A stretch of DNA of 64,000 nucleotides from Staphylococcus phage Machias. The position numbers and the translations under genes are program-made. The stretch lies in sequence record MW349128.1. The stretch is one strand, 5' to 3'. This document shows, one piece after another, positions 51,459-52,090 of the stretch (position 1 is the stretch's first letter; each line of letters starts with the position of its first letter). The notes beneath the pieces were generated by a model. It worked only from the letters and a program-made list of their open reading frames with translations, was not told the DNA's origin and made no database searches.

Positions 51459-51464
51459 GCTCAA

Positions 51465-51595
51465 TTAAAATCATATTAACTGCTGAAAAGACATTTAAAG
51501 TTGATCAGCATCAATTAAATTGTTCAACGACTAAATATATGACAAAGAAGATATAGTCTCATCTATAAAATGAATATAGTAAAGATAAATGACTT
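51465..51595 (+). ncRNA. group I intron core copy A (boundaries approximate)
   Basis: P AACTGCTGAAAAG 51489, Q GATCAGCATC, R GTTCAACGACTAAATAT, S AAGATATAGTCTC. Confidence 0.4.
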
Positions 51596-51639
51596 ACATG
51601 TTAAGAGGTTAAATACTGTTGTAGCCTCCTTATACAGTA

Positions 51640-51795
51640 ATGTATATGTAAAATTTTTTAAATTGCTGGGAAAGTTTATGAAACTAATCAGCATCTAATA
51701 TTAAGTAAATAATCTTAATAAAGTTCAACGACTAAAATTAAAACTCCTAATAGGATGAATATATAGTCTAAACACTAAATAAAAATAGTGTATGA
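51640..51795 (+). ncRNA. group I intron core copy B (boundaries approximate)
   Basis: P AAATTGCTGGGAAAG 51662, Q AATCAGCATC, R AGTTCAACGACTAAAA, S ATATATAGTCTAAAC. Confidence 0.4.
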
Positions 51796-51899
51796 AATTA
51801 TTGTACAACAGCTTCTTTCGAAAAAGAATGCATATAGTCTAGACGCTTCATCGAGATCAATGAAAACCGGTTTTAATGAAAAAATTTTGGCCGCTTATT

Positions 51900-52060
51900 A
51901 TAGTAATATGATAATGATAATATTATTAATTGCTGAGAAAATTAAAGTTAATCAGCATCAATCAAATTGATTGTTCAACGACTAAATATAATGGTACTCA
52001 TAAAGAGTATAAGATATAGTCTGGCTTATATAGAAATATATAGGATAACTGCAACTCTCA
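51900..52060 (+). ncRNA. group I intron core copy C (boundaries approximate)
   Basis: P AATTGCTGAGAAA ~51927, Q AATCAGCATC, R GTTCAACGACTAAATAT, S AGATATAGTCTGG; candidate terminal G near 52056. Confidence 0.4.
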
Positions 52061-52090
52061 GGTTCAGACAAAGTAGCAAGCGTATCAAAT

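What the first reader, a model, noticed from the sequence alone, without database searches (positions are those of the whole stretch)
51459..52090. Three tandem compact group I intron cores within ~600 bp, with micro-exons
Three complete P/Q/R/S sets occur at ~51489-51563, 51662-51775 and 51927-52026, separated by only ~60-130 nt. They lie between a 561-aa zinc-ribbon ORF that stops at 51458 and an 86-aa ORF that is open in frame back to 52049. An extra S-like element (CATATAGTCTAGAC, ~51830) lies between copies B and C. This resembles multiply interrupted genes with exons of a few codons (as in some staphylococcal/Bacillus phage genes). It could instead be a nest of decaying intron copies. 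The family has clearly proliferated: six copies in 40 kb.
Basis: seen in the sequence. Interest (0 to 1): 0.55.

Follow-up and report, generated by a model that had tools for sequence, protein, structure and literature searches.

The report
Three tiny self-splicing introns, one gene
A virion RNA-polymerase gene of a giant Staphylococcus phage is cut into four pieces (two of them only 18 and 68 bases long) by three small group I introns; this is a known kind of arrangement, but one intron is only 147 bases long and lacks two helices that such ribozymes normally have.

Summary

**What is there.** Window 51445-52051 holds three ORF-less group I introns: A 51445-51591 (147 nt), B 51610-51803 (194 nt) and C 51872-52051 (180 nt). 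They interrupt one gene, 49773-52351. That gene is a β-like subunit of the virion RNA polymerase of an AR9/PBS1-like Staphylococcus jumbo phage.

**Exons.** The micro-exons are 51592-51609 (18 nt) and 51804-51871 (68 nt).

**Evidence for the boundaries.**
- Intron-less alleles exist in phages UFV_DC4 and SA1.
- Removing the three introns gives a single 685-codon ORF.
- Every intron follows a U·G pair in P1 and ends in G.

**Evidence for structure.** Covariation across 44 distinct relatives supports P1-P9.

**Rejected parts.** The "extra S-like element" is ordinary coding sequence (codons AYSLD). The "decaying copies" alternative is not supported.

**What is known and what is new.** The arrangement resembles Twort orf142 and the AR9 and Madawaska RNA-polymerase genes. 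The new point is intron A. It belongs to a 140-147 nt subfamily that lacks both P2 and P8, yet sits in essential genes of cultured phages. To my knowledge this is smaller than any characterised natural group I intron. Splicing itself was not tested.

The parts
49773..51444 (+). Exon 1 of the virion RNA-polymerase β-like subunit gene. It ends ..GTT GGG T, i.e. Val-Gly plus the first base of a Tyr codon.
   Evidence: ORF list. tblastn with the intron-less UFV_DC4 protein gives 76% identity over 557 aa. PHROG 3233 'RNA polymerase beta subunit', E = 1.4e-11.
51445..51591 (+). Intron A, 147 nt, an ORF-less 'mini' group I intron with no P2 and no P8. P1 51439-44/51459-64 (UUGGGU/GCUCAA); P3 51471-76/51537-42; P4 51481-85/51506-10; P5 51490-92/51500-02; P6 51512-15/51519-22; P7 51529-33/51554-58; P9 51563-67/51575-79; terminal G at 51591. 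The apparent stop of the 561-aa ORF (51456-58) lies inside it.
   Evidence: Helix coordinates. Rfam 26.5 bits. R1 58.4 bits with P2 and P8 deleted. Absent from UFV_DC4 and SA1. Seven mini-introns: 98.5% of cells paired.
51592..51609 (+). Exon 2, 18 nt, ACTTACATGTTAAGAGGT = (Y)LHVKR(L). Its last 5 nt form P1 of intron B.
   Evidence: Matches YLHVKRL of the intron-less alleles. P1 of B.
51610..51803 (+). Intron B, 194 nt, an ORF-less group I intron with all of P1-P9. P1 51605-09/51624-28 (GAGGU/GCCUC); P2 51631-36/51641-46 (GUAA loop); P3 51656-61/51738-43; P4 51664-68/51689-93; P5 51673-77/51681-85; P6 51695-96/51722-23 plus 51699-705/51714-20; P7 51730-34/51764-68; P8 51745-48/51752-55; P9 51772-77/51786-91; terminal G at 51803. 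P10: CUGUUGUA (51617-24) pairs with the first 8 nt of exon 3.
   Evidence: helices; P10 duplex -9.4 kcal/mol. Rfam 42.7 bits. R1 134 bits. An intron at the same site in LY01 (166 nt), AH12 and PB50.
51804..51871 (+). Exon 3, 68 nt = (L)QQLLSKKNAYSLDASSRSMKTG.
   Evidence: tblastn 91% identity to the intron-less allele. AH12 and PB50 carry synonymous variants without ATATAGTCT.
51872..52051 (+). Intron C, 180 nt, an ORF-less group I intron with all of P1-P9. P1 51868-71/51890-93 (CGGU/GCCG); P2 51895-902/51907-14 (GUAA loop); P3 51921-26/51988-93; P4 51931-35/51953-57; P5 51940-42/51947-49; P6 51959-63/51969-73; P7 51980-84/52017-21; P8 51995-99/52005-09; P9 52025-32/52037-44 (GAAA loop); terminal G at 52051.
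   Evidence: Rfam 35.9 bits. R1 164 bits. The same insertion site holds a 328-nt intron in AR9 and a ~1.3-kb endonuclease-carrying intron in PB50 and MarsHill.
52052..52351 (+). Exon 4 (QLSGSDKVASVSNMEAS...DYDQEEE, then stop).
   Evidence: tblastn 92% identity over 98 aa. PHROG 3233, E = 1.8e-10. The spliced ORF is continuous.

Best explanation
One gene (49773-52351) for a β-like subunit of the phage's virion RNA polymerase is transcribed as a single pre-mRNA. It carries three independent, ORF-less group I introns (A 147 nt, B 194 nt, C 180 nt), inserted within about 30 codons of the most conserved β motif.

**How each intron is removed (inferred).** Each intron folds into its own ribozyme. 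Its internal guide sequence pairs with the last 4-6 nt of the upstream exon, which ends in a U·G wobble (P1). An external guanosine attacks that site. The freed exon then attacks the bond after the intron's terminal G.

**Result.** The four exons, including the 18-nt and 68-nt micro-exons, are joined into a 685-codon ORF.

**What keeps the exons in order.** The three guide sequences differ (GCUCAA, GCCUC, GCCG). Both ends of each micro-exon are used by the two flanking ribozymes. These features should keep splicing in register.

**Origin.** The introns belong to three sub-lineages of one family that has spread through the genome, so they arrived separately and are not a tandem duplication.

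**Shown:** the sequence anatomy, the intron-less alleles, the restored ORF and the covariation.

**Inferred:** that splicing occurs, and that it is autocatalytic. The second point is least certain for intron A, which has no P2 and no P8.
For: 1. **Intron-less alleles.** UFV_DC4 and SA1 have uninterrupted 677/679-aa genes. tblastn maps four exon blocks in the window. Splicing at U|...G| gives a 2058-nt ORF with a single terminal stop, and the junction peptide VPVGYLHVKRLQQLLSKKNAYSLDASSRSMKTGQLSGSDK matches the intron-less proteins.
2. **Presence/absence among nine relatives**. Site 1 is occupied in the window, AH12, PB50, LY01 and Madawaska. Site 2 is occupied in the window, AH12, PB50 and LY01. 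Site 3 is occupied in the window, AH12, PB50, MarsHill and AR9.
3. **Ribozyme anatomy.** P1 with U·G, P3-P7 pseudoknot, P4-P6, P9 and a terminal G are present in all three; P2 and P8 are present in B and C. B has an 8-bp P10 with exon 3.
4. **Model scores.** Rfam RF00028 E = 2e-9, 2e-7 and 1.6e-4. Family model R1 gives 164, 134 and 58 bits.
5. **Covariation in 44 distinct family members.** 90.4% of cells are paired against 33-44% when partners are slid. 41 of 46 pairs change on both sides. The score is 0.534 against <=0.086. The last P1 pair is U·G in 28 of 44. P3 and P7 were not correctly modelled in R1, so their 82-100% pairing does not come from fitting to the model.
6. **Mini-introns.** 98.5% of cells are paired, and P1 is 100% paired at three different insertion sites. 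This includes an exon/guide covariation at the same site: GGGU/GCUC against GGAU/GUUC.
7. **Transcription unit.** No terminator-like hairpin lies inside the region; hairpins flank the gene at 49679-49712 and 52369-52399.
8. **Essential gene in cultured phages.** AH12 and PB50 (98.6-99.3% identical over intron A; 96.6-96.9% over the whole gene region) are cultured phages, and the gene encodes a virion RNA polymerase subunit (AR9 gp077 note).
Against: - No RNA data: splicing was not observed.
- All three fall below Rfam's gathering score (50 bits), and nothing was reported in a whole-window scan.
- P1 of intron C is only 4 bp and its P10 only about 3 bp.
- Intron A lacks P8, normally part of the conserved core, and P2. 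Its P10 is weak (-4.0 kcal/mol). It may therefore need a protein or other help.
- The A3 alignment was fitted to a model, which inflates pairing in the hairpins.
- The match to bacterial β is weak (E = 1e-3 to 2e-3).
Confidence: 0.9

Rival explanations
1. The introns are removed in vivo, but intron A (and its 140-147 nt relatives) is not an autonomous ribozyme. Having lost P2 and P8, it depends on a phage or host protein, an RNA chaperone, or the neighbouring introns to fold and splice.
For: A has no P2 and no P8. It scores much lower than B and C with both models. In full-size relatives the P2 loop is a GNRA tetraloop; from my knowledge of the Azoarcus and Twort structures this loop docks on P8, so a stabilising contact has been lost.
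Against: Madawaska carries two mini-introns side by side with no full-size neighbour. Mini or P8-less copies occur at 5 or more sites in three genes. All catalytic-core strands (J8/7, P7, P3, P4, P6) are intact and invariant. No candidate maturase was seen in or next to the introns.
Confidence: 0.3
2. Decayed, non-splicing intron remnants. The gene is permanently split and expressed as separate polypeptides (561 aa and 86 aa), and the micro-exons are not expressed.
For: GenBank records of AH12 and LY01 annotate two separate hypothetical proteins. The 86-aa ORF has its own ATG at 52091. RNA polymerase subunits are already split in these phages (bioRxiv 10.1101/2020.12.14.422802).
Against: The micro-exons stay in frame and are 91-100% identical at protein level to intron-less alleles. 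Guide sequences match their own exons and covary with them. Helices covary. The interrupted segment aligns to the conserved C-terminal part of bacterial β (residues ~1160-1313) and would be lost.
Confidence: 0.03
3. Alternative splicing. A substantial share of transcripts skips exon 2 (5' site of A joined to the 3' site of B), as in Twort orf142, giving a protein six residues shorter.
For: Skipping exon 2 keeps the reading frame. Exon skipping is documented for a 23-nt exon between two group I introns in Twort and a 34-nt exon in Coxiella (PMC10136302), and for a Bastillevirinae polymerase gene (PMC11878797).
Against: A and B are only 58% identical and have different guide sequences, whereas skipping in Twort involves two highly similar introns. 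The skipped residues LHVKR(L) lie within the segment that aligns to the conserved C-terminal region of bacterial β. Skipping exon 3 shifts the frame.
Confidence: 0.1

Closest known systems
Staphylococcus phage Twort orf142 (three group I introns in one gene; Landthaler & Shub 1999, as summarised in PMC10136302 and PMC11878797)
   Same: [quoted passage not shown] There is a micro-exon of about 20 nt between two of them (23 nt in Twort, 18 nt here). All are ORF-less.
   Different: Twort's gene encodes a tail tube protein (PMC11878797); here it is a virion RNA polymerase β-like subunit. Twort I2 and I3 are highly similar to each other, whereas the three introns here are 58-65% identical. By my recollection, not checked here, the Twort introns are about 250 nt IA2 introns with P7.1/P7.2. 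The introns here are 147-194 nt, with no room for P7.1/P7.2 between P3' and P8.
Intron-split RNA polymerase genes of AR9/PBS1-like jumbo phages (AR9 gp077; Madawaska gp233, MarsHill gp230; Lavysh 2016, Korn 2021)
   Same: It is the orthologous gene. AR9 gp077 is annotated as a virion RNAP subunit joined from 3 pieces, with a 328-nt group I intron at exactly site 3 (KSG|Q). Madawaska gp233 is annotated as joined from 3 pieces. MarsHill has an endonuclease-carrying intron at site 3.
   Different: The window, AH12 and PB50 have three introns at sites 1, 2 and 3. The AH12 and PB50 records do not annotate the micro-exons. The published work predicted the staphylococcal-phage junctions by protein alignment only. 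I found no description of the ribozyme structures or of the P2/P8-less form.
Azoarcus pre-tRNA-Ile group I intron (from my own knowledge: about 205 nt, commonly cited as the smallest self-splicing group I intron; I could not retrieve a held paper stating this)
   Same: A compact bacterial-type group I intron without large peripheral domains. Its P2 and P9 have GNRA loops, as in introns B and C.
   Different: All three window introns are shorter (194, 180 and 147 nt). Intron A and its relatives (140-147 nt) lack P2 and P8, which Azoarcus has.
IStrons (group I ribozyme fused to an IS200/IS605 TnpB gene)
   Same: The same intron family in this window also occurs fused to TnpB-like genes, at 13520-14987 and 35894-37355.
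   Different: Introns A, B and C carry no ORF at all.

Membership tests
Group I intron (Rfam RF00028) | Conserved core pairings P4 (P/Q) and P7 (R/S), with the P3-P7 pseudoknot and P6 | tested here: met
   All are present in A, B and C with coordinates. In 44 relatives P4 and P7 are 100% paired, P3 82-86% and P6 80-100%, with changes on both sides.
Group I intron (Rfam RF00028) | P1 formed by the 5' exon end and an internal guide, with a U·G wobble at the 5' splice site | tested here: met
   A UUGGGU/GCUCAA, B GAGGU/GCCUC, C CGGU/GCCG. U·G is invariant in the 7 mini-introns and present in 28 of 44 family members.
Group I intron (Rfam RF00028) | Terminal guanosine (ωG) immediately before the 3' exon | tested here: met
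   G at 51591, 51803 and 52051. These are the only positions that restore the frame and the intron-less sequence.
Group I intron (Rfam RF00028) | P8 hairpin between P3' and P7' | tested here: not met
   B (UCCU/AGGA) and C (UACUC/GAGUA) have P8. Intron A does not: only CAAAG separates P3' from J8/7. In A the distance from the R element to ATAGTC is 17 nt; it is >=25 nt in the 173 other exact R-element hits where ATAGTC was found (6 short cases among 183 hits; 4 lacked ATAGTC). The feature fails for A only.
Group I intron (Rfam RF00028) | Score at or above the Rfam gathering threshold (50 bits) | tested here: not met
   42.7, 35.9 and 26.5 bits, and no hit in the gathering-score scan. The E-values in the 901-nt search are still 2e-9 to 1.6e-4.
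Group I intron (Rfam RF00028) | Guanosine-dependent self-splicing | not testable with these tools
   This needs in vitro transcription with labelled GTP, or RT-PCR or RNA-seq.
Group I intron (Rfam RF00028) | Precise absence from homologous intron-less alleles | tested here: met
   UFV_DC4 and SA1 lack all three introns. Other phages lack one or two of them.
Mobile (homing) group I intron | Intron-encoded homing endonuclease | tested here: not met
   No ORF of 60 aa or more lies within A, B or C. PB50 and MarsHill have a 317/319-aa endonuclease gene in a different intron at site 3.
Twort-orf142-type multi-intron gene | Three or more group I introns in one ORF, separated by exons of a few codons | tested here: met
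   Exons of 18 and 68 nt lie between three introns.
Twort-orf142-type multi-intron gene | Exon skipping by cooperating neighbouring introns | not testable with these tools
   All that can be said is that skipping exon 2 would stay in frame and skipping exon 3 would not.

The most novel reading that the evidence does not exclude
Intron A and its relatives are autonomous self-splicing ribozymes of only 140-147 nt that have dispensed with both P2 and P8. The relatives are Madawaska I1 and I2, LY01 I1 and the terminal MarsHill β' intron; P8-less copies also occur in MarsHill gyrB and in uncultured jumbo phages. If so, they would be the smallest natural group I introns. They would also be a natural experiment showing that P8, normally counted as part of the conserved core, is dispensable.
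Probability: 0.4. Interest if true: 0.7.

Novelty: new variant of a known kind. Interest (0 to 1): 0.5.

Why it matters
- **Annotation.** The micro-exons are missing from the public records of the closest phages (AH12, PB50, LY01), so an RNA polymerase subunit appears there as two unrelated hypothetical proteins. MarsHill's β' gene is likewise annotated as ending inside an unrecognised mini-intron.
- **Intron biology.** About 30 codons of the most conserved β motif hold at least five different insertion sites among close relatives: four used by group I introns and one by a group II intron. Site 3 is shared with the Bacillus phage AR9. This makes the locus a compact system for studying how introns target, replace and retarget conserved sequence. 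One example is that the same guide sequence, GCUCAA, is used at two different sites.
- **RNA structure.** A natural 140-147 nt group I intron without P2 and P8, maintained in essential genes, would lower the known size limit of this ribozyme class. It would also offer a small, easily made construct for folding and catalysis studies.
- **Limit.** None of this is a new kind of system. It is a known mechanism in an unusually reduced and crowded form.

Tried and rejected
- **Rfam whole-window scans** (gathering score, and E <= 0.01) found nothing. Only the targeted 901-nt scan showed RF00028. This reflects the filters and the thresholds applied (gathering score; E <= 0.01), not absence.
- **The first covariance model (R1)** was given P3 and P7 as nested brackets, which mis-paired this pseudoknot. 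I kept R1 only for finding and aligning copies. Pairs were counted with a corrected pseudoknotted structure.
- **MAFFT alignments** (A1, A2, A4) mis-register P5, P6 and some P9 hairpins. Those helices were left out of the A4 count.
- **Extra S-like element as an intron remnant:** rejected. It is codons AYSLD of exon 3 and is not conserved at the DNA level in AH12 or PB50.
- **Recent tandem duplication of one intron:** rejected. A, B and C are 58-65% identical, while C is 76% identical to the gyrB intron and A is 70-78% identical to mini-introns in other phages and at other sites.
- **IMG/VR tandem arrays as the same gene:** rejected. There is no tblastn match to this protein. One array (L017) sits around the β' NADFDGD motif.
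- **A 12-nt micro-exon in L017** suggested by model hit coordinates turned out to be an artefact of hit boundaries.
- **Literature searches** for P8-less or 'smallest' group I introns returned nothing useful. The AR9 genome paper and the Twort 1999 paper are not held. The statement that 140-147 nt is below any characterised natural group I intron therefore rests on my own knowledge.
- **The exact mini-intron junction pattern** has no match in IMG/VR.
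Full report
**1. What the window is**

- The region 49700-52400 is 96.6-96.9% identical to the Staphylococcus jumbo phages AH12 and PB50.
- It is 76-80% identical to LY01, MarsHill, Madawaska, PALS_2, UFV_DC4, SA1 and S6. A short segment also matches the Bacillus phages AR9 and PBS1.
- The 561-aa ORF (49773-51458) and the frame that includes the 86-aa ORF both hit PHROG 3233, 'RNA polymerase beta subunit' (E = 1.4e-11 and 1.8e-10).
- Madawaska and MarsHill annotate the orthologue as 'viral RNA polymerase beta subunit', joined from several pieces.
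- AR9 gp077 is annotated as a virion RNA polymerase subunit joined from three pieces.
- Upstream lies an intein-containing gyrA.

**2. Checking the observation**

- The sequence shows three sets of the classical group I elements.
- The R element GTTCAACGACTAAA occurs exactly six times in the window, all on the + strand. Three of them are at 51522, 51723 and 51973. Shuffles gave a mean of 0.4 even with two mismatches allowed.
- ATATAGTCT occurs nine times against 2.0 expected.
- Rfam found nothing in whole-window scans.
- A targeted scan of 51300-52200 matched RF00028 three times:

| Match | Bits | E-value |
|---|---|---|
| 51600-51790 | 42.7 | 2e-9 |
| 51864-52043 | 35.9 | 2e-7 |
| 51435-51573 | 26.5 | 1.6e-4 |

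- All three are full-length on the model and all are below the gathering score of 50.

**3. Exact anatomy from intron-less alleles**

UFV_DC4 and SA1 carry uninterrupted genes of 677 and 679 codons. tblastn of the UFV_DC4 protein against the window gives three blocks: exon 1, exon 3 and exon 4. The seven residues YLHVKRL between exons 1 and 3 are encoded by ACTTACATGTTAAGAGGT at 51592-51609.

| Element | Coordinates | Length |
|---|---|---|
| Exon 1 | 49773-51444 | 1672 nt |
| Intron A | 51445-51591 | 147 nt |
| Exon 2 | 51592-51609 | 18 nt |
| Intron B | 51610-51803 | 194 nt |
| Exon 3 | 51804-51871 | 68 nt |
| Intron C | 51872-52051 | 180 nt |
| Exon 4 | 52052-52351 | 300 nt |

- Each intron follows a U and ends in G.
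- Joining the exons gives a 2058-nt ORF with one terminal stop. The junction peptide is VPVGYLHVKRLQQLLSKKNAYSLDASSRSMKTGQLSGSDK. It differs from UFV_DC4 at three residues.
- The stop codon that ends the 561-aa ORF lies 12-14 nt inside intron A.

**4. Ribozyme structure**

- B and C have every canonical helix: P1 with a U·G pair, P2 closed by a GUAA tetraloop, P3, P4, P5, P6, P7, P8, P9 and a terminal G.
- In B the guide region reads 5'-CUGUUGUA·GCCUC-3'. Its 3' half pairs with the last five bases of exon 2 (P1). Its 5' half pairs with the first eight bases of exon 3 (P10, -9.4 kcal/mol).
- In C, P1 is only CGGU/GCCG and P10 is about 3 bp.
- Intron A has P1 (UUGGGU/GCUCAA), P3, P4, P5, P6, P7 and P9.
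- Intron A has no P2: six nucleotides link the guide sequence to P3.
- Intron A has no P8: CAAAG links P3' to J8/7.
- Both Rfam and my own model align A with these two hairpins deleted.

**5. Family model and covariation**

- A model built from eight full-size copies (R1) finds six copies in the window:

| Copy | Bits |
|---|---|
| C | 164 |
| 35894-36078 | 136 |
| B | 134 |
| gyrB intron, 38984-39172 | 132 |
| 13520-13711 | 118 |
| A | 58 (E = 1.5e-10) |

- A scan of IMG/VR for the Q...R pattern brought in 107 stretches from uncultured jumbo phages. R1 finds 151 copies in 62 sources.
- I counted pairs on a 52-sequence alignment (44 distinct rows) using a corrected, pseudoknotted structure:

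| Measure | Structure as given | Partners slid by 1-3 columns |
|---|---|---|
| Cells that form a standard pair | 90.4% | 33-44% |
| Covariation score | 0.534 | <=0.086 |

- 41 of 46 pairs show changes on both sides. No shuffle out of 500 reached the observed values.
- The hairpins in this alignment were fitted to the model, which favours pairing. P3 and P7 were not correctly modelled in R1, and they are still 82-100% paired.

**6. The three introns are not copies of each other**

- Identities are A/B 58%, A/C 64% and B/C 65%.
- C is 76% identical to the gyrB intron.
- A is 70-78% identical to the mini-introns of Madawaska, LY01 and MarsHill (99% to the orthologous AH12 copy).
- The introns therefore arrived separately.

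**7. A hot spot for insertions**

Among nine relatives plus AR9 the segment VPVG-YLHVKR-LQQLLS-KKNAYSLDASTRSMKTG-Q carries introns at the following sites:

| Site | Position | Phages with an intron |
|---|---|---|
| 1 | G\|Y | window, AH12, PB50, LY01, Madawaska |
| 2 | KR\|L | window, AH12, PB50, LY01 |
| near 2 | just downstream of KRL (tblastn block ends KRLR) | PALS_2 and S6, a group II intron (GUGUG 5' end and a typical domain V) |
| 2b | LLS\|KK | Madawaska |
| 3 | TG\|Q | window and AH12 (180 nt); PB50 and MarsHill (~1.3 kb with an endonuclease gene); AR9 (328 nt) |

- phmmer against PDB sequences aligns this segment to bacterial β residues about 1160-1313. VGYLHVKRLQQLLSKKNAYSLDASSRSMKTGQ aligns with E. 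coli [31 protein letters not shown] (E = 1e-3 to 2e-3).
- The match is weak, but it places the introns in one of the most conserved β motifs. This fits what is generally known about intron and endonuclease targets.

**8. The mini-intron subfamily**

- Window A, its AH12 and PB50 orthologues, Madawaska I1 and I2, LY01 I1 and a MarsHill β' intron are 140-147 nt long. All lack P2 and P8.
- In a seven-sequence alignment 98.5% of cells are paired.
- P1 is perfectly paired at three different insertion sites, with U·G invariant.
- At site 1 the exon and the guide covary: GGGU/GCUC in the window against GGAU/GUUC in Madawaska and LY01.
- Madawaska I2 uses the same guide as window A (GCUCAA) at a different site (UUGAGU against UUGGGU).
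- The MarsHill β' mini-intron has a 6-bp P1 and an 8-bp P10. It precedes a 33-nt last exon. The GenBank CDS stops inside the intron.
- The P8-less junction sequence occurs at 2-8 places per genome in five Staphylococcus jumbo phages.
- One of those places is the MarsHill gyrB intron (P2 present, P8 absent), at the very site where the window phage has a full-size intron.
- Differently sequenced P8-less copies exist in uncultured jumbo phages, for example L011:429-586 and L017:2378-2557.
- These introns sit in essential genes of plaque-forming phages, so I infer that they are removed in vivo. Whether they do this unaided is unknown.
- From my own knowledge, the GNRA loop of P2 docks on P8 in compact bacterial group I introns. 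Loss of both would then remove one tertiary clamp as a unit. This is an inference, not a test.

**9. Mechanism**

- The gene lies between terminator-like hairpins at 49679-49712 and 52369-52399, with none inside it. This is consistent with one transcript.
- Each intron should splice by the standard two-step guanosine-initiated pathway.
- Both ends of each micro-exon are used by the flanking ribozymes:
  - Exon 2's last five bases form P1 of B.
  - Exon 3's first eight bases form P10 of B.
  - Exon 3's last four bases form P1 of C.
- The different guide sequences should limit exon skipping.
- Skipping exon 2 would stay in frame. Skipping exon 3 would not.

**10. Comparison with what is known**

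- Three group I introns in one staphylococcal phage gene, a 23-nt exon and exon skipping are known from Twort orf142 (PMC10136302; PMC11878797).
- Intron-laden RNA polymerase genes are known in AR9 and were predicted by protein alignment in MarsHill, Madawaska and Machias (bioRxiv 10.1101/2020.12.14.422802).
- Group II introns and endonuclease-carrying introns in the RNA polymerase genes of these phages are also described (PMC12350094).
- The arrangement is therefore a new member of a known kind.
- I could not find any description of the reduced architecture of intron A and its relatives. My literature searches on this were unproductive, and two key papers are not held. That novelty claim is therefore provisional.

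**11. Verdict**

- The 'decaying copies' alternative and the 'extra S element' are rejected.
- Interest is moderate. It comes mainly from the P2/P8-less 147-nt intron and from the density of insertion sites.

Noticed in passing
window 13520-14987 and 35894-37355: Two further copies of the same group I ribozyme (R1 118 and 136 bits) are each followed within about 75 nt by a 400/401-aa TnpB-like ORF. Pfam hits are OrfB_IS605, Cas12f1-like TNB and HTH_OrfB_IS605. These are IStron-like elements in a phage genome. The first begins inside the 3' end of a 1171-aa ORF. The 3' splice sites were not determined.
   Followed up: partly
window 38996-39172: A 177-nt full-size group I intron (P2 and P8 present) splits gyrB at ..TSDAD|DGLH... 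MarsHill has a P8-less intron of about 155 nt at the same site (L119 about 319-472).
   Followed up: partly
window 46096-49650: gyrA is a 1184-aa ORF containing an intein (Pfam Intein_splicing over residues 127-490). The MarsHill and Madawaska orthologues are annotated as containing an intein; a LAGLIDADG endonuclease domain is predicted for the MarsHill one.
   Followed up: no
L008 (PALS_2) about 2272-2855; L009 (S6) about 4254-6171: A group II intron sits a few bases from site 2 in the same β motif. It has a GTGTG 5' end and domain V GAGCCGTATGAGGTGAAAGTCTCACGTACGGTT. In S6 it carries a 436-aa zinc-finger (DUF4379) ORF rather than a reverse transcriptase. This matches the endonuclease-type phage group II introns of PMC12350094.
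   Followed up: partly
L117 (MarsHill) 1493-1632: A 140-nt mini-intron with a 6-bp P1 and an 8-bp P10 lies near the 3' end of the virion β' gene, followed by a 33-nt last exon (VQALYSLTKE*). The GenBank CDS ends at a stop codon inside the intron, so this intron appears to have been missed. A second, P2-less but P8-containing intron lies at L117 1203-1366.
   Followed up: partly
L017 3560-4300 (- strand); also L034, L057, L059, L024, L038: Uncultured jumbo-phage contigs from IMG/VR carry arrays of three or four tandem introns of this family separated by short exons. In L017 one exon encodes ..EPLNADFDGDTVSI, the catalytic NADFDGD motif of β'.
   Followed up: partly
L006 (PB50) 4447-5401: Compared with the window, PB50 has an extra stretch of about 1.1 kb with two small ORFs after the gene. 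It is followed by a second copy of the gene's last 14 codons (DLLKDTRPDYDQEE, 5360-5401). This looks like an insertion that duplicated the gene's 3' end.
   Followed up: no
window 49679-49712 and 52369-52399: The two hairpins that flank the gene share the motif GGTAATGA...TCATTACC. This may be a repeated phage terminator or regulatory hairpin.
   Followed up: no
L006 2673-3991 against window 51872-52051: PB50 and the window phage are about 97% identical in the flanking exons, yet they carry unrelated introns at site 3: about 1.3 kb with an endonuclease gene in PB50, and 180 nt without an ORF in the window. This points to recent intron replacement at one site.
   Followed up: partly
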